Shown in pieces: positions 872 through 7,001 of a stretch of 12,537 bases of DNA. A model generated the notes under the pieces. The model made no database searches. It saw only the letters and a program-made list of their open reading frames with translations, and was not told where the DNA came from. The stretch comes from a virus, in the UHGV virus genome UHGV-0172325; one strand, written 5' to 3'. The position numbers and the translations under genes are program-made. The first letter of the stretch is position 1. Each line of letters starts with the position of its first letter.

Positions 872-1063
872 CTACGAATTATGTTGTTTTTTAGCTTCAG
901 CTTTCCATTCATCAAAGGCAGTGTCTTTGTTCATGGTGCTGATATTGATCTTACGGTCAATATCATATACACGCCACTCACCGTTAGGCCTCTCTTCGCA
1001 TCTAACTAAGTATGAATTGCCATTAATATCTATGCGTCTGTCTATTTGCATGAACATTTTCAA
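872..1063 (-). CDS. Hypothetical protein (63 aa)
   Basis: Protein-like ORF on the operon strand. Start codon uncertain: Met at codons 1, 3 and 5, none with a clear SD. Confidence 0.4.
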   Translation of the reverse strand: MKMFMQIDRRIDINGNSYLVRCEERPNGEWRVYDIDRKINISTMNKDTAFDEWKAEAKKQHNS

Positions 1064-1456: not shown

Positions 1457-2399
1457 GGTTAACCTCCTGCGGCGGTTCTGGTAGCGGCATCCAGTACAAG
1501 GCGTTCCCTAACCACGATAAAGTGCCGTCGCTCAACTCCACGTATTCCCCTTGTACCTGTCCTGCCATATACTCGCCGTGCTTTGAATAAATTAAAATCC
1601 AATCATCTTGAGCGGGCATTCGCTCACTACAGCTTATCCAACCATCCGGAGTTACCGGAGAGTTGCCGGGTTCTTTAATGTGCAAGCGAGGCTCACCATC
1701 TTTTGGCTCAGGCCACTGGCGCTCCATGTTGATCTTCAATTTATCTTCCATAGCAGCGGTAATTTCAGCATCGCTGATGCCAGCACGGCGCTGTGCATCC
1801 CACAACAGAAACTGCATATCAGCCCACTCGCTAAGATCGTCTGGTTCGGCTGCGGCTTCCAGTGCCTCTTTTGAGAGATGTTTCAGCGGGCCAACTGTAC
1901 CAACACAGCCAAACGTCTTATCTGACCATTCAGCATGGCGCTGCCGGATTAAATTGCGCAATTGAAGCGATGATCCGTTCTCCTCTGACAACTCTTCATG
2001 ATTACTTGCAGGTTCGACACCCTGAAGCATGGCGGCGCGGCAGGCATTCCAGCCTCTCACCTCTGCAATAGCGGCAACAGCATCGACCGCGTACATTTTA
2101 AGAGGGTTGGGCATTGGTTTTTCTTCAGGTACTACTGGCACTGGAGGGGCGGCGTATACTTCAATTGTCCCATTATCAATAGGCCATTCCCCATCCTTGA
2201 TGTAGTCACTTGTGCCATCGACCTGCTGTTCTGCAATGTGGAAAGCACCTATTGGTTTTGCTTCCAGTGATGCCAGTGCAATTTTTAATGCGGTAAGCAT
2301 GTTGTTTTGATCTTCATCGAGTCCGAACGGTATTTCATCCCGTGCTGACTCAATGCTGGTAATCGTGTTCTGTAACCATTCTTTGGTAAGAGTATTCAT
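1449..2399 (-). CDS. Prophage early protein, 316 aa; acidic; possible MazG-like dATP/dGTP pyrophosphohydrolase (DUF550-type) plus DUF551-type C-terminus
   Basis: Long ORF whose start sits 3 nt after the upstream stop. The central acidic helical segment (EALEAAAEPDDLSEWADMQFLLWDAQRRAG) and the Trp/Gly-rich C-terminus resemble the DUF550/DUF551 architecture common in enterobacterial prophages. Recalled from memory, not searched. Confidence 0.45.
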   Translation of the reverse strand: MNTLTKEWLQNTITSIESARDEIPFGLDEDQNNMLTALKIALASLEAKPIGAFHIAEQQVDGTSDYIKDGEWPIDNGTIEVYAAPPVPVVPEEKPMPNPLKMYAVDAVAAIAEVRGWNACRAAMLQGVEPASNHEELSEENGSSLQLRNLIRQRHAEWSDKTFGCVGTVGPLKHLSKEALEAAAEPDDLSEWADMQFLLWDAQRRAGISDAEITAAMEDKLKINMERQWPEPKDGEPRLHIKEPGNSPVTPDGWISCSERMPAQDDWILIYSKHGEYMAGQVQGEYVELSDGTLSWLGNALYWMPLPEPPQEVNRG

Positions 2400-4037: not shown

Positions 4038-4331
4038 TCAGTCATTACTGATAGCGCCATAGCGTGAGCGGTAATTACGCAGGCGCGGGTCAATTTCATG
4101 GAAGTGGGTATATGTGGCTTTGCGGAATGGTCGGATTGATGTCTGGTAAATTCGCTCGCGTTCTTCTTTCTCTGCAAGCCATATACAATTGCGAAATTCC
4201 TTTTCCTCTTTCGTTTCCTGTGGTAGCGACATTATCCGGTCGTAGTTTTTCCTGAATTTATCCAGCACCTCCGATACGGAATTGCCGGAACAGCGGCGCG
4301 CGTCGTCCGCACCATACAGAGGCGCTGGCAT
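4038..4331 (-). CDS. Hypothetical protein (97 aa)
   Basis: ORF with a strong SD (AGGAG, 7-nt spacer), starting 13 nt after the ssb stop. Confidence 0.5.
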
Positions 4332-4344
4332 GATTTTCTCCTGA

Positions 4345-4860
4345 TTAAATTGCGTGAATAGCGTGACGAGGGAAGGGGAGAGTTACTGGTGCAAAGGGTA
4401 TATCGTCGTCAAAATCCATAGGTGGTTCGCTGTGATTCCCATGCTGCTTAGATTGCTGTCTTTGTTGCTGACCGTTATTTCGCTGAGGTGAAGACTGTTC
4501 ATTGCCTCCTTGCTTTCCACCAAGCATTTGCATGGTTCCACCAACGCCTACGATAACTTCGGTAGTGAACCGATCCTGTCCGCTTTGATCCTGCCATTTT
4601 CTTGTCCGCAATTTGCCTTCAAGATAAACCTCTGAGCCTTTTCGCAGATATTCGCTGGCAATTTCTGCCAGTTTCCCGCTCATTACCACACGGTGCCACT
4701 CCGTCTGCTCCTTTTGCTCTCCAGTTTGCTTATCACGCCATTGTTCTGACGTAGCAACTGTAAGGTTTGCAAATGCCGTTCCTGATGGTGAATATCTGAT
4801 TTCTGGATCATGACCAAGGCGACCAATAATGATCACCTTATTTACGCCTCTGCTTGCCAT
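4345..4860 (-). CDS. ssb: Single-stranded DNA-binding protein (SSB) with a 15-aa extension beyond the canonical DDDIPF tip
   Basis: N-terminal OB-fold region closely matches E. coli SSB (MASRGVNKV..., [45 protein letters not shown]), followed by a Gly/Gln-rich linker and [11 protein letters not shown]. The ORF then continues [15 protein letters not shown] before the stop. Confidence 0.9.
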
Positions 4861-5568
4861 TTATGCCGCCTGTTTTAGCTCGTTAACTCTGATGTTCATT
4901 ACCTGAACGCATTTAGCCTGCGCCTCCTCGTTTCCAGCCATTAATTGCCAGTCACGCTGATAACGCTCGATGAGTTTTTTCTTGTCAGTTTCTGTTGACG
5001 CATAATCGCTGAAGTCTTTCAGGATTTGTTCGCAGTCAACCGATGGAGATTTCTGGTTGGTATTTTCTGGTGGTGATTTGTTATCTGATACTGGCATTGC
5101 CCAGCCCGGCAGCGATGGGGGGGACCAGTAAAATCCTGTTCCATCCTTCAGTTTTGCCCTGTGCCACCCCTGCTTTTTATCGAGAGATGTTTGTGCGAAA
5201 CCTTCCTCAAGGTTATACAGATACCGACCGATTCCCCACTGAACGGCAGCGCGCTTCATTGCACCGGAACGACCGCCTTTGACGGCTTCTACCTGCGTGT
5301 TTTCAGCAGCATCCCATTTGGTTACCCATTCGGAATCAATCTTTATTGATATGCCGCATTCAACGCCGCCGTTGTTGGGAATATCGCGGTATTCATTGCG
5401 CCATCCTGCTTTGCCGCAAACATCGTCCAGGCGTTTCATGATTGCCCGGTTCGTGACATAAGCCAGCACCATAGCCCACACTTTTCCATCGCGTGTTTTA
5501 CCGCTTTGCTGTATTCGCCATTCGATATCTTCAGGGCTGAATGGCTCATCGAATTTGTTCAAATCCAT
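4861..5568 (-). CDS. Rad52/22-family ssDNA-annealing protein (phage recombinase, Sak-like)
   Basis: 235-aa ORF directly upstream of ssb (its stop TAA abuts the ssb ATG). The N-terminal region with KRAAVQWGIGRYLY resembles Rad52-type annealing proteins. Sits where bet/erf occurs in lambdoid phages. Confidence 0.55.
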   Translation of the reverse strand: MDLNKFDEPFSPEDIEWRIQQSGKTRDGKVWAMVLAYVTNRAIMKRLDDVCGKAGWRNEYRDIPNNGGVECGISIKIDSEWVTKWDAAENTQVEAVKGGRSGAMKRAAVQWGIGRYLYNLEEGFAQTSLDKKQGWHRAKLKDGTGFYWSPPSLPGWAMPVSDNKSPPENTNQKSPSVDCEQILKDFSDYASTETDKKKLIERYQRDWQLMAGNEEAQAKCVQVMNIRVNELKQAA

Positions 5569-5737
5569 AATTCACCTCAGAATGGACATGGCCCAAGGAA
5601 ATAACGCTGATTTAATACTTCAGTCTTTGCCGCATTCAAAAATACGCGAACACCTTCACGATCTCCCTTCTGGCGATACATTAACGCCTGCTGCGTGTAC
5701 ATGCGCCTCTGTAACTTGCTCTCCTTCACTGTGGTTG
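5567..5737 (-). CDS. Small hypothetical protein (56 aa) in the kil/gam position
   Basis: Not in the ORF track (under 60 aa). ATG at 5737 is preceded by GAAGGAGATATTC. Translation: MSLATTVKESKLQRRMYTQQALMYRQKGDREGVRVFLNAAKTEVLNQRYFLGPCPF. Overlaps an alternative ORF (5656..5826) in another frame. Confidence 0.35.
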
Positions 5738-5959
5738 CAAGTGACATGAATATCTCCTTCGTTACCGATTAATTCTTTCATCTGACGAATGAATTCTTCG
5801 TCTGACCAGTTATCTGTAAAACTCATTTCCTGCGATACCACGGAAGGTTGATAGCTGATTTCATCGCTTTATTTGCTTCAAGCCACATTTTTGAATCACC
5901 AATAAATCTGGCTATTACTGCTTTGTTTTGTGCCGCACGAAGCATCTGGTGATTAATGG

Positions 5960-6094
5960 CTATTTCATTGCGCATAACGCCTCCAGTTGTTTCTTTGCTG
6001 CTCTGATTAATTGTTTAACTCGGCGTGATAATTCAGATTCGTGCGGGTAGAAAGCGGACATGACGCCGCTACCCGCGAGCTGAAAGTGCATCAT
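5960..6094 (-). CDS. cIII-like small protein (44 aa), putative FtsH-inhibitor analogue
   Basis: Internal Met pair with AGGAG 6 nt upstream. The segment HESELSRRVKQLIRAAKKQL aligns with the lambda CIII core SESLLERITRKLRDGWKRL as recalled from memory. Position between N and the recombination genes matches lambda cIII. Confidence 0.45.
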   Translation of the reverse strand: MMHFQLAGSGVMSAFYPHESELSRRVKQLIRAAKKQLEALCAMK

Positions 6095-6157
6095 GGGTAA
6101 CTCCTTATATTTGATTGCATAACGAAAACGCCTCGAGTGAAGCGTTATTGGTATGCA

Positions 6158-6184
6158 TATAAAAAAGCCCTCACACTGGAGGGC
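6158..6184 (-). terminator. Intrinsic terminator, tL1-like (GCCCUC stem, 6-nt loop, U-run on the leftward transcript)
   Basis: Plus strand reads AAAAAA-GCCCTC-ACACTG-GAGGGC; on the minus-strand RNA the hairpin is followed by UUUUUUAUAU. Lies upstream of the cIII-like gene. Confidence 0.6.
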
Positions 6185-6320
6185 AAAGAAGATTTCCAAT
6201 AATCAGAACAAGTCGGCTCCTGTTTAGTTAAGAGCGACATTGCTCCGTGTATTCACTCGTTGGAATGAATACACAGTGCAGTGTTTATTCTGTTATTTAT
6301 GCCAAAAATAAAGGCCACCA

Positions 6321-6572
6321 TCAGGCAGCCTTGTTGTAAATGTTGCAGGTATCAAGTAAGTAATTAGATGGAGCGCCATAAATTATGAATTCATCGTTTG
6401 TCGGGTCCATCTCCATCTCTTGGCCTATTGCCATTCTTGCGTCAGTGTCATCAGCGGCGAAGCATAAAACAGCCCACGCACCCATTGTTTTAAAAAGAAC
6501 TGCAATTGGCTGTGGTTTTACTGAATTTGCGTTAGCGCGAAAATCACAAATCGCACTTTCATGAAATTCCAT
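6321..6572 (-). CDS. Hypothetical protein (83 aa)
   Basis: ORF with a good SD (GAGGTG, 4-nt spacer). Located between N-like and cIII-like, the lambda ea10/ral slot. An imperfect hairpin plus T-run overlaps its 3' end (about 6303-6335). Confidence 0.5.
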   Translation of the reverse strand: MEFHESAICDFRANANSVKPQPIAVLFKTMGAWAVLCFAADDTDARMAIGQEMEMDPTNDEFIIYGAPSNYLLDTCNIYNKAA

Positions 6573-6630: not shown

Positions 6631-6903
6631 TCATCTTGCTGTCAGTTGTTTGGATTTACGGTAGCCTGCCGCGTAAAGAGCTACATTTGGAAGACAAGTT
6701 GAGCCTTCATATTTTCTGGTCAACGTTGTCAGTGTTATTACTTCTGCTCTCATTGCTGGTTTGCGTTTGCATTGTAAGACCACTCGTGATGGGGTTGGCC
6801 TGTGTAGTTTGTCGGAGCTAATCGCCTCCTGACTTTGCAGGTTTGCGCGACGAGCTCTACGGCGAGAAGCTGCGGTGCCTTTAAATTCTGTTTTTCTGGA
6901 CAT
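6631..6903 (-). CDS. N-like transcription antiterminator (90 aa)
   Basis: Start at the internal Met (6903) with GGAGG 5 nt upstream. The N-terminal arginine-rich motif GTAASRRRARRANL resembles the lambda/P22 N motif. The C-terminus LPNVALYAAGYRKSKQLTAR resembles P22 gp24 as recalled. Lies just downstream of pL and nutL. Confidence 0.6.
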   Translation of the reverse strand: MSRKTEFKGTAASRRRARRANLQSQEAISSDKLHRPTPSRVVLQCKRKPAMRAEVITLTTLTRKYEGSTCLPNVALYAAGYRKSKQLTAR

Positions 6904-7001
6904 AGATTCCTCCCGAATAAACTTTGGCGATGCAATCTCGAAGCTCCTCCTGAGACGGTTGCTTCGGCATTGCATCCCACAGCTTATGTGGTTGGGTGAT
7001 C

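What the first reader, a model, noticed from the sequence alone, without database searches (positions are those of the whole stretch)
5567..6094. cIII-like peptide and an ambiguous pair of overlapping small ORFs in the kil/gam slot
A 44-aa ORF (5960..6094, good SD) has a central amphipathic segment resembling the conserved core of lambda CIII, and sits behind a tL1-like terminator. Downstream, two minus-strand ORFs overlap in different frames. One (5567..5737, 56 aa) has an excellent SD (GAAGGAGATATTC-ATG) and a helical, basic sequence. The other (5656..5826, 56 aa from its ATG) has an acidic N-terminus (MSFTDNWSDEEFIRQMKELI) but a poor SD. Only one may be real, or both may be expressed as overlapping genes. 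Neither resembles Gam or Kil as far as I can recall.
Basis: partly seen in the sequence, partly recalled or inferred. Interest (0 to 1): 0.45.

Follow-up and report, generated by a model that had tools for sequence, protein, structure and literature searches.

The report
Known lambdoid cIII–kil–gp42.1–gp42 gene cluster
This stretch is the ordinary, already-annotated early-left gene string of an HK022/HK97-type lambdoid prophage (cIII, kil, then the small overlapping genes called 42.1 and 42 just ahead of the recombinase); both overlapping frames look genuinely coding, but only gene 42 constrains the shared DNA, and what 42 and 42.1 do is still unknown.

Summary
The 44-aa ORF (5960..6094, minus strand) is CIII. 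It matches Pfam cIII at E=2e-30 and is 100% identical to HK022/HK97 CIII.

It is Kil (Pfam Lambda_Kil E=1.7e-20, 100% identical to HK97/HK022/Sf6 Kil). The pair is therefore not in a "kil/gam slot"; the anti-RecBCD gene is an Abc2 homologue at 4038..4331.

Both are annotated in mEp235, HK022 and Sf6.

- **gp42:** under strong purifying selection. It stands alone in distant phages. AlphaFold2 predicts a confident helical hairpin, and the C-terminal FLGxxPF is nearly invariant across the family (final PF invariant). In 151 of 152 loci it lies 1-10 nt upstream of a recombinase of three unrelated families (Erf, Rad52-like, AAA_24/Sak4-like).
- **gp42.1:** its first ~25 codons are frame-specifically conserved (pN/pS 0.36-0.45), start-stop coupled to the upstream gene, and weakly like P22 Arf. 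Its 30-codon tail inside gp42 is unconstrained.

Both frames appear coding. Function is unproven; I infer a role as recombination-module accessories. Novelty: already known.

The parts
6157..6184 (-). Intrinsic-terminator-like hairpin (GCCCTCCAGTGTGAGGGC) plus T-run upstream of cIII. It corresponds to the putative terminator annotated in HK97.
   Evidence: stem 6184..6167 with a T-run. One search places the HK97 terminator 67-90 nt upstream of cIII, which is the same offset.
5960..6094 (-). cIII, 44 aa, HK022-class CIII (inhibitor of the FtsH protease).
   Evidence: Pfam PF08134 E=2e-30, 104.7 bits against a cutoff of 25. phrog_550. 100% identical to HK97, HK022 and mEp235 CIII. The HK022-class CIII is described in PMC1838920.
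5823..5975 (-). kil, 50 aa (lambda Kil family cell-division inhibitor). Overlaps the cIII 3' end by 16 nt.
   Evidence: Pfam PF06301 E=1.7e-20. phrog_2055 E=1.2e-35. 100% identical to HK97/HK022/Sf6 Kil. PGAP names it kil in E. coli genomes.
5656..5826 (-). orf42.1, 56 aa (HK97 gp42.1 / Sf6 gene 30). Its ATG overlaps the kil stop (ATGA). Codons 1-26 (5749..5826) form a conserved acidic, weakly Arf-like peptide. Codons 27-56 overlap gp42 and are unconstrained.
   Evidence: phrog_2123 E=1.1e-39, and phrog_2445 (Arf) E=0.042. Annotated in mEp235, HK022 and Sf6. pN/pS in its own frame is 0.36-0.45, against about 1 in the other two frames. The tail has pN/pS 1.1-6.8.
5577..5747 (-). orf42, 56 aa (HK97/HK022 gp42 / Sf6 gene 29). 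Strong SD (GAAGGAG). Predicted helical hairpin with a nearly invariant C-terminal FLGxxPF (final PF invariant). Its stop lies 8 nt before the recombinase start.
   Evidence: phrog_1723 E=4.5e-34. 19 synonymous against 5 nonsynonymous polymorphisms, p=9e-9. Stand-alone homologues in Erwinia, Salmonella and Kluyvera phages. AF2 pLDDT 90.9. Family alignment.
4861..5568 (-). Rad52/22-family single-strand annealing protein, the first gene of the recombination module that gp42 precedes.
   Evidence: Pfam PF04098 E=4.9e-26. phrog_1097 E=7.6e-129.
4345..4860 (-). Phage SSB (context).
   Evidence: Pfam PF00436 E=2.1e-38.
4038..4331 (-). Abc2 anti-RecBCD protein (context). This is the real Gam-equivalent of this prophage.
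   Evidence: Pfam PF11043 E=4.2e-62.

Best explanation
The window carries the early-left (pL) operon of an HK022/HK97/mEp235-type lambdoid prophage on the minus strand. The gene order is: cI, N, an 83-aa ORF, terminator, cIII, kil, orf42.1, orf42, Rad52-like annealing protein, SSB, Abc2.

**cIII and kil.** The 44-aa ORF is the HK022-class CIII. From the lambda literature, CIII is a competitive inhibitor and substrate of FtsH that stabilises CII. The next ORF is Kil, a cell-division inhibitor according to the Pfam, PHROG and PGAP family names.

**The overlapping pair.** Both ORFs are real genes.
- orf42.1 begins on the kil stop codon (ATGA) and so is translated by coupling rather than from its own SD. 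Its selected product is effectively the first ~25 residues, an acidic, probably helical peptide with a WSDEEFI motif like that of P22 Arf. The ribosome then runs on for ~30 unselected codons until the first stop that gp42's codons happen to create.
- orf42 starts from its own strong SD inside orf42.1. It encodes a 56-aa helical hairpin whose C-terminal FLGxxPF tail ends in an invariant PF.

**Function (inferred, not shown).** gp42, and probably the Arf-like 42.1 peptide, are accessory factors of the phage homologous-recombination module. gp42 is always placed directly ahead of whichever recombinase family the phage carries. I therefore infer that it acts on something common to all of these modules (host SSB-coated ssDNA, a host nuclease or similar, possibly docking through the C-terminal tail) rather than on one particular annealing protein.
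For: **Identity of the genes**
- Near-identical DNA (98%) in mEp235, with cIII, Kil and two overlapping hypothetical proteins annotated there. HK97, HK022 and Sf6 carry equivalent annotations, although HK97's 42.1 and 42 share one frame.
- Pfam hits for cIII and Kil; 100% protein identity to the reference phages.

**gp42 is coding**
- In a sample of loci chosen through kil, the non-overlapping part has 19 synonymous against 5 nonsynonymous polymorphisms (p=9e-9).
- Pairwise pN/pS is 0.13-0.72 (0.13-0.29 in the non-overlapping half).
- Stand-alone 56-aa homologues with no upstream overlapping ORF occur in Erwinia phage 59, Salmonella phage S9-5 and a Kluyvera prophage.
- PGAP calls it in E. coli genomes.
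- AF2 predicts a hairpin at pLDDT 90.9.
- F50, P55 and F56 are invariant and L51/G52 nearly so across 17 diverse homologues.

**orf42.1 N-terminus is coding**
- In its own frame, pN/pS is 0.36-0.45 with synonymous enrichment (p=0.001-0.028) across three diverged lineages. The other two frames give about 1 and contain stops.
- Start-stop overlap is kept behind kil (ATGA), behind a second cIII type (ATGA) and in Pseudocitrobacter (GTGA).
- The same N-terminus heads a 35-aa ORF in HK140/SEN22-type phages.

**The tail of orf42.1 is unselected**
- pN/pS is 1.1-6.8.
- One locus has a premature stop at codon 37 with gp42 intact (L059).
- The openness of that frame is not unusual given gp42's protein sequence (P=0.19-0.45).

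**Link to recombination**
- In 152 of 152 loci the next gene starts 1-10 nt after gp42 (in one locus 13 nt before its end). That gene is Erf (84), Rad52-like (63), AAA_24/Sak4-like (3), a second ERF type (1) or an HNH endonuclease (1).
- Upstream neighbours vary freely.
- P22 arf sits in the equivalent place, between kil and erf.
- Weak Arf similarity: PHROG E=0.042 for the window protein and 8.4e-4 for the Pseudocitrobacter homologue; hhalign P=0.0026.
- One nr source labels the identical protein 'accessory recombination function protein'.
Against: - No experiment on gp42 or gp42.1 was found. A 2025 survey of lambdoid recombination modules does not list them as module genes and says the functions of Arf and Abc1 are unknown.
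- The Arf similarity is sub-threshold. Pfam PF17585 does not hit and hhalign gives a probability of only 11.5%.
- Shallow polymorphism in the orf42.1 N-terminus (13 nonsynonymous including one stop, against 5 synonymous) cannot be distinguished from neutrality (p=0.17). PGAP does not call orf42.1.
- Conserved adjacency could reflect operon architecture and mosaic-junction homology rather than function. All eight combinations of upstream gene, central allele and recombinase occur.
- Fold and sequence searches give no functional lead.
Confidence: 0.7

Rival explanations
1. Only gp42 is a gene. orf42.1 is a spurious ORF, and its conserved first 79 nt are kept for nucleotide-level reasons: they form the translation-initiation region of gp42, or they are a homology 'linker' at which lambdoid modules recombine.
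For: - PGAP omits orf42.1.
- Its shallow polymorphism is not distinguishable from neutral, and two loci carry early truncations.
- The tail is unconstrained.
- The unit lies at a mosaic joint where all module combinations occur.
- GAAGGAG within its last codons is gp42's SD.
Against: - Substitutions between three diverged lineages are synonymous-enriched only in the orf42.1 frame (pN/pS 0.36-0.45, p=0.001-0.028). The other frames contain stops.
- Start-stop coupling is preserved behind two different upstream genes.
- The same N-terminus heads a separate 35-aa ORF where gp42 is absent.
Confidence: 0.2
2. The pair is really one gene. Either it is an ~82-aa protein split by a frameshift mutation in this lineage, or a fusion protein is normally made by programmed +1 ribosomal frameshifting from the 42.1 frame into the gp42 frame.
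For: - HK97 encodes a single 83-aa ORF that joins the two frames.
- At least nine other natural 76-82-aa fusions with different junctions exist. One is found on 36 contigs. P0010 is an exact N-terminus-plus-gp42 fusion caused by a 1-nt deletion.
Against: - The two-ORF arrangement is the overwhelming majority: clusters of 151, 511 and 201 members against mostly singletons, and 52 of about 58 gp42-bearing loci among the 80 chosen through kil.
- gp42 exists alone with its own start in distant phages.
- In most of the fusions (HK97, P0055, P0065, P0066, P0069, P0071, P0013) the conserved N-terminal helix of gp42 is replaced by out-of-frame sequence.
- The 42.1 stop codon differs in type and position between lineages (TGA or TAA at gp42 codons 26-30), and I saw no shared slippery site (reading).
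- Shifts into the third frame and truncations also occur (P0058, P0018, P0024), as expected for random indels.
- AF2 on the P0010 fusion shows no confident packing of the N-terminal peptide on the hairpin.
Confidence: 0.05
3. gp42 is translated but has nothing to do with recombination. It is a small host-takeover or anti-defence protein that simply rides at the boundary between the cIII/kil block and the recombination block.
For: - The early-left operons of lambdoid phages are full of small host-directed proteins such as CIII, Kil and Ral.
- gp42 co-occurs with three unrelated recombinase families, which argues against a specific partner among them.
- There is no fold or sequence similarity to any DNA-metabolism protein.
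Against: - In distant phages the upstream neighbours are completely different, yet a recombinase still follows within 10 nt: Erwinia, Kluyvera, Pseudocitrobacter and Enterobacter.
- In Salmonella phage S9-5 an HNH endonuclease follows instead.
- The linkage is therefore to the recombinase side and not to cIII/kil.
Confidence: 0.3

Closest known systems
HK022-class CIII (HK022, HK97, H-19B), in the lambda CIII family (Pfam PF08134)
   Same: 100% identical 44-aa protein. Same position behind a terminator and ahead of kil. Conserved central region (ES-L-R--L-R) shared with Sf6 and P22 C3.
   Different: Nothing detectable. It is shorter than lambda and P22 CIII at the C-terminus, as is typical of the HK022 class.
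Lambda Kil family (Pfam PF06301), as HK97/HK022/Sf6 Kil
   Same: 100% identical 50-aa protein in the same operon position.
   Different: Nothing.
HK97 gp42 / HK022 gp42 / Sf6 gene 29 (phrog_1723)
   Same: 100% identical to the HK022 and mEp235 proteins. Same strong SD and same position directly upstream of the recombinase.
   Different: HK97 itself carries two extra bases, so that its gp42 C-terminal part is read in the 42.1 frame as an 83-aa ORF. The window has the common two-ORF form. PHROG's label 'recombinase' for this family is unsupported by any evidence found here.
HK97 gp42.1 / HK022 gp42.1 / Sf6 gene 30 (phrog_2123)
   Same: 98% identical to mEp235 and HK022. Same ATGA coupling to kil and same overlap with gp42.
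   Different: The tail varies between alleles in length (56 or 52 aa) and in sequence. In HK140/SEN22-type phages the same N-terminus is joined to a different 19-aa acidic tail, giving a 35-aa ORF.
P22 Arf (accessory recombination function, 47 aa, Pfam PF17585, phrog_2445)
   Same: A small acidic peptide encoded right after kil at the head of the recombination module. It shares the [FW]SDEEFI motif at residues 5-13.
   Different: There is no Pfam hit, and the PHROG and hhalign similarities are sub-threshold. The C-terminal halves are unrelated. In P22, arf abuts erf directly, whereas here gp42 intervenes. gp42 itself shows no significant similarity to Arf.

Membership tests
Lambda CIII family (PF08134) | Profile HMM match above the curated threshold over the whole domain | tested here: met
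   E=2e-30, 104.7 bits against a cutoff of 25; residues 2-38 match model positions 1-37 of 37.
Lambda CIII family (PF08134) | Conserved central amphipathic region (the ~24 residues essential for lambda CIII activity) | tested here: met
   Alignment with Sf6 and P22 C3 keeps A7, G8, M12, E19, S20, L22, R24, L29, R31 and K35. The region is defined in PMC1838920.
Lambda CIII family (PF08134) | Position in the pL operon, downstream of N and a terminator and upstream of kil and the recombination genes | tested here: met
   N at 6631..6975, hairpin at 6184..6167, cIII at 5960..6094, kil at 5823..5975.
Lambda CIII family (PF08134) | Inhibits FtsH and stabilises CII | not testable with these tools
   Needs biochemistry or genetics. 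Shown for lambda CIII in PMC1838920. The same paper lists the HK022-class sequence identical to this one.
Lambda Kil family (PF06301), for ORF 5823..5975 | Profile HMM match above the curated threshold | tested here: met
   E=1.7e-20, 72.6 bits against a cutoff of 27.6. phrog_2055 E=1.2e-35 over the full length.
Lambda Kil or Gam, for the two overlapping ORFs | Sequence similarity to Kil, Gam or another anti-RecBCD family | tested here: not met
   No Pfam hit for either ORF at E<=0.1. Kil and Abc2 are encoded elsewhere in the window.
HK97 gp42 family (phrog_1723) | Full-length profile match; two helices plus the C-terminal FLGxxPF | tested here: met
   E=4.5e-34, residues 1-56 match positions 3-58 of 58. 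F50, P55 and F56 are invariant and L51/G52 are conserved in at least 90% of 17 homologues. Helices at 7-27 and 30-49.
HK97 gp42 family (phrog_1723) | Located immediately upstream of the recombinase or annealing-protein gene | tested here: met
   8-nt gap to the Rad52-like gene in the window. In 152 of 152 loci the next gene begins within 10 nt of the gp42 stop; it is a recombinase in 151 and an HNH endonuclease in one.
HK97 gp42.1 family (phrog_2123) | Profile match, with the start codon overlapping the upstream stop codon | tested here: met
   E=1.1e-39. ATGA overlap with kil read directly from the sequence.
P22 Arf (PF17585 / phrog_2445), for orf42.1 | Profile HMM match at a significant level | tested here: not met
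   No PF17585 hit at E<=0.1. phrog_2445 E=0.042, covering residues 5-26 only. hhalign probability 11.5%.
P22 Arf (PF17585 / phrog_2445), for orf42.1 | Small acidic peptide encoded after kil at the head of the recombination module | tested here: met
   Order kil-arf-erf in P22. Order kil-42.1-42-SSAP in the window.
P22 Arf (PF17585 / phrog_2445), for orf42.1 | Stimulates Erf-dependent recombination | not testable with these tools
   Needs phage genetics.
Programmed +1 frameshift gene (prfB-like) | A conserved slippery site with a stimulator at the 0-frame stop, shared by homologues | tested here: not met
   The 42.1-frame stops differ between lineages (TCG TGA, CCA TAA, GGG TGA) and follow from gp42 codon choice.

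The most novel reading that the evidence does not exclude
gp42, a 56-aa helical hairpin whose tail ends in an invariant PF, together with the Arf-like 42.1 peptide, could be a recombinase-independent accessory pair. It would prepare a common substrate or disarm a common host factor for any phage annealing protein. One possibility is that it docks through the PF-COOH tail in the way the SSB C-terminal tip docks on its partners. The recurrent natural 42.1-gp42 fusions would then be 'Rosetta-stone' evidence that the two peptides work together.
Probability: 0.12. Interest if true: 0.5.

Novelty: already known. Interest (0 to 1): 0.18.

Why it matters
As a finding it matters little. cIII and kil are textbook genes, and the overlapping pair is already annotated as gp42.1/gp42 in the deposited HK97 and HK022 genome records.

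Three residual points have some value:
- Both frames pass a frame-specific selection test, but only gp42 constrains the shared DNA.
- Current RefSeq annotation (PGAP) drops orf42.1.
- gp42 is a tightly conserved protein of unknown function that is always placed directly ahead of whichever recombinase a phage carries. That makes it a cheap and well-defined candidate for anyone studying accessory factors of phage recombination or improving recombineering systems.

Tried and rejected
- **Fold searches.** Foldseek with the gp42 model against PDB and BFVD gave only generic helical hairpins, none with E<=0.001.
- **Sequence against PDB.** The profile search returned only a de novo designed repeat protein.
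- **NCBIfam.** No hit for any of the small proteins.
- **Exhaustive HMMER search.** The gp42 profile against 1.84 billion representatives found only 21 hits. Those above noise are all short proteins of the same family, so there is no link to a known domain.
- **gp42 against the Arf profile.** Not significant, E=0.47.
- **Rfam.** No hit on the whole window.
- **RNA folding around the gp42 start.** z=-1.75, unremarkable.
- **AF2 on the natural fusion P0010.** The N-terminal peptide has low confidence and no confident contact with the hairpin.
- **Test for selection keeping the 42.1 frame open across gp42.** Synonymous-codon resampling gives P=0.19-0.45 per lineage, so no evidence of selection.
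- **Programmed frameshifting.** Rejected because there is no shared slippery site and the stops vary.
- **Literature searches** for gp42, gp42.1, the RefSeq protein accession and SSB-tail mimicry found nothing relevant.
- **Sampling bias noted.** My first set of 80 IMG/VR loci was selected for 100% gp42 identity and was therefore useless for testing gp42 selection. I replaced it with loci selected through kil.
Full report
**1. What is in the sequence**

On the minus strand, 5300..6500 contains the following features:
- A G+C hairpin with a T-run at 6184..6167.
- A 44-aa ORF at 5960..6094, with AAGGAG 6 nt upstream of its ATG.
- A 50-aa ORF at 5823..5975 that overlaps the previous ORF by 16 nt.
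- An ORF at 5656..5826, 56 aa from its ATG, whose ATG overlaps the previous stop codon (AAATGAGT).
- A 56-aa ORF at 5577..5747, preceded by GAAGGAGATATTC.
- Eight bases later, a 235-aa ORF at 4861..5568.

They are 10 nt too low for the strong-SD ORF. The 50-aa ORF was not listed at all.

**2. Identity of the locus**

- Megablast of 5400..6350 finds 392 phage records. The best is mEp235 at 98% identity over 96% of the query; HK75, HK022, H-19B, HK97 and Sf6 also match.
- The same 551 bases match in 1115 of 5426 complete E. coli genomes.
- Depositors annotate CIII, Kil and two overlapping hypothetical proteins in mEp235 and HK022, and genes 32, 31, 30 and 29 in Sf6.
- HK97 annotates CIII, Kil and gp42.1/gp42, but there the two share one reading frame and one stop codon.
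- Pfam gives cIII (E=2e-30) for the 44-aa ORF, Lambda_Kil (E=1.7e-20) for the 50-aa ORF, Rad52_Rad22 for the 235-aa ORF, and nothing for the overlapping pair.
- PHROGs places the pair in phrog_2123 and phrog_1723 with full-length matches.
- CIII is 100% identical to the HK97, HK022 and mEp235 proteins. Kil is 100% identical to the HK97, HK022 and Sf6 proteins.
- Kobiler et al. 2007 (PMC1838920) describe this 'HK022 class' of CIII, with identical sequences in HK022, HK97 and H-19B, and show that lambda CIII is a competitive inhibitor of FtsH.
- The rest of the window fits a lambdoid early region: cI-type repressor at 8666..9367, N at 6631..6975, SSB at 4345..4860, Abc2 anti-RecBCD at 4038..4331, and an Ea22-like protein.

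There is therefore no empty 'kil/gam slot'. kil is present, and Abc2 supplies the anti-RecBCD function.

**3. Is gp42 (5577..5747) a real gene? Yes.**

- 56-aa homologues stand alone, with no overlapping upstream ORF, in Erwinia phage vB_EhrS_59, Salmonella phage S9-5 and a Kluyvera prophage.
- I used 80 IMG/VR loci selected through kil, so that sampling was unbiased with respect to the pair. In that set the non-overlapping half of gp42 shows 19 synonymous and 5 nonsynonymous polymorphisms (binomial p=9e-9).
- Pairwise pN/pS between diverged lineages is 0.13-0.72 across the two halves, and 0.13-0.29 in the non-overlapping half.
- PGAP calls it in RefSeq E. coli genomes.
- The family is small. 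An exhaustive profile search of 1.84 billion representatives finds 21 hits, and those above noise are all short proteins of the same family.
- Seventeen diverse members share invariant S10, A21, E43, F50, P55 and F56, and nearly invariant L51 and G52. Every member ends in PF.
- AlphaFold2 gives a confident helical hairpin (helices 7-27 and 30-49, pLDDT 90.9) with a less ordered C-terminal tail.

**4. Is orf42.1 (5656..5826) a real gene? Its first ~25 codons, yes. Its tail is a passenger.**

- *N-terminus.* I compared the window with Enterobacter phage MII_001 and a Pseudocitrobacter prophage (64-71% nucleotide identity). The 75-nt non-overlapping part gives pN/pS 0.36-0.45 in the 42.1 frame, with synonymous changes significantly enriched (one-sided Fisher p=0.028, 0.001 and 0.009). 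The other two frames give 0.74-1.35 and contain stop codons.
- *Coupling.* The start codon overlaps the stop of whatever gene lies upstream. That is kil (ATGA), a second cIII type ending ...QQGRP (ATGA), or, in Pseudocitrobacter, a cIII-like gene (GTGA). This explains the 'poor SD'.
- *A second context.* The same N-terminus (MSFTDNWSDEEFIRQM) heads a 35-aa ORF with a different acidic tail in HK140/SEN22-type phages. There gp42 is absent and a RecT or exonuclease VIII module follows.
- *Tail.* Inside the overlap the 42.1 frame has pN/pS 1.1-6.8, and 15 of 16 polymorphisms change its amino acid.
- One locus (L059) has a stop at 42.1 codon 37 with gp42 unchanged.
- The tail differs completely in sequence between lineages.
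- Resampling gp42's synonymous codons shows that an open 26-30-codon run in that frame is not unusual (P=0.19-0.45 per lineage).
- The stop position follows from gp42's G-D-R-E codons.
- *Caveats.* Shallow polymorphism in the N-terminus (13 nonsynonymous including one stop, against 5 synonymous) is not distinguishable from neutral (p=0.17). PGAP does not call the ORF.

**5. Natural fusions**

- HK97 has two extra bases that join the 42.1 frame to the C-terminal two-thirds of gp42, giving an 83-aa ORF.
- The large protein database holds at least nine more fusions of 76-82 aa with different junctions: P0010, P0011, P0013, P0016, P0055, P0065, P0066, P0069 (on 36 contigs) and P0071.
- The P0010 DNA shows a single-base deletion, ATTCATG to ATCATG.
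- Shifts into the third frame, truncations and rearrangements also occur (P0018, P0024, P0058, P0061).
- The fusions are small clusters beside normal clusters of 151-511 members.
- I read them as sporadic indels in prophages, not as evidence for one gene or for programmed frameshifting. No slippery site is shared.
- AF2 on P0010 shows no confident contact between the two parts.

**6. What might the pair do?**

- In every one of 152 loci with sequence downstream, the next gene begins within 10 nt of the gp42 stop; in one locus it begins 13 nt before it.
- That gene is ERF-family (84), Rad52/22-family (63), an AAA_24 (Sak4-like) ATPase (3), a second ERF type (1) or, in Salmonella phage S9-5, an HNH endonuclease (1).
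- Upstream neighbours are kil, cIII or unrelated genes.
- Among E. coli prophages all eight combinations occur: upstream gene (kil or cIII-2) by central gp42 allele (A or B) by recombinase (Erf or Rad52-like).
- P22 has arf in the equivalent place, in the order kil-arf-erf.
- P22 Arf shares only the [FW]SDEEFI motif with the 42.1 N-terminus.
- PHROG Arf scores are E=0.042 for the window protein and 8.4e-4 for the Pseudocitrobacter homologue. hhalign gives P=0.0026 at 11.5% probability. Pfam PF17585 does not hit.
- gp42 itself is not similar to Arf.
- One nr source names the identical 42.1 protein 'accessory recombination function protein'.
- A 2025 survey of lambdoid recombination modules states that the molecular functions of Arf and Abc1 are unknown, and it does not mention gp42.

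My inference is that both are accessory factors of the recombination module, acting on something common to all the recombinase types. The invariant C-terminal PF suggests a docking tail. Its resemblance to the ...IPF tip of SSB is only a lead recalled from general knowledge and was not tested. No experiment supports any of this.

**7. Verdict**

- The cIII call is correct, but that gene is already known. A kil gene was missed.
- The overlapping pair is the long-annotated gp42.1/gp42. Both frames appear coding, with gp42 owning the overlap. Function remains unknown.
- Ordinary locus, low interest.

Noticed in passing
window 5823..5975 (-): A complete kil gene (50 aa, Pfam Lambda_Kil E=1.7e-20) lies between cIII and the overlapping pair. 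It was not listed in the finding.
   Followed up: yes
L002 (HK97) 1954..2205; proteins P0010, P0011, P0013, P0016, P0055, P0065, P0066, P0069, P0071: There are recurrent natural frameshift variants that fuse the 42.1 frame to gp42 as 76-83-aa ORFs with at least ten different junctions. HK97 itself is one, and another is found on 36 contigs. They are probably sporadic indels. Whether they are tolerated or selected is unknown.
   Followed up: partly
window 5577..5826 and loci L012-L179: The 42.1/42 unit is a mosaic joint. The first ~135 nt and last ~45 nt are nearly identical across phages, while the centre of gp42 comes in two alleles (…QQALMYRQKGDREGVRVFLNAAKTE… and …QKALWYRHNGDREGMRVCLNLSRVE…). 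All eight combinations of upstream gene, allele and downstream recombinase (Erf or Rad52-like) occur. The recombinase junction falls just after the gp42 stop.
   Followed up: partly
proteins P0044 and P0053 (homologues of window 5775..5795): There are in-frame tandem duplications of a 21-nt unit (EFIRQMK) in the orf42.1 N-terminus. One extra copy occurs in an E. coli protein and two in a Salmonella Chester protein. The unit is flanked by the short direct repeat AAGAATT.
   Followed up: no
window 4345..4860 (-): The phage SSB carries the canonical acidic tip DFDDDIPF internally, followed by 17 more residues ([15 protein letters not shown]). The same extension is seen in the Kluyvera prophage L099, whereas the Pseudocitrobacter SSB (L098) ends at ...DDEIPF. 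An SSB tip that is not at the C-terminus is unusual.
   Followed up: no
window 6321..6572 (-) and 6311..6332: An 83-aa ORF of unknown function (phrog_2471, E=1.4e-61, no Pfam hit) lies between N and cIII. It is followed by its own terminator-like hairpin, so two or three terminator-like sites lie between N and cIII.
   Followed up: no
RefSeq E. coli NZ_CP091044.1 (L181): PGAP annotates CIII there only as 'hypothetical protein' and does not call orf42.1 at all. Some other genomes label the same CIII 'protease FtsH-inhibitory lysogeny factor CIII'. Annotation of these small genes is inconsistent.
   Followed up: partly
window 5645..5660 (-): A terminator-like hairpin plus T-run (CGTGAAGGTGTTCGCG TATTTTTGAA) lies inside gp42, exactly where the 42.1 frame stops. 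It is probably a chance match within coding sequence.
   Followed up: no
L005/L006 (SEN22, HK140) 901..1008: The 35-aa ORF MSFTDNWSDEEFIRQM…DDDSDSE, which shares the 42.1 N-terminus, is unannotated in both deposited genomes. It overlaps the start of the next gene (103 aa, unknown function) by 23 nt.
   Followed up: partly
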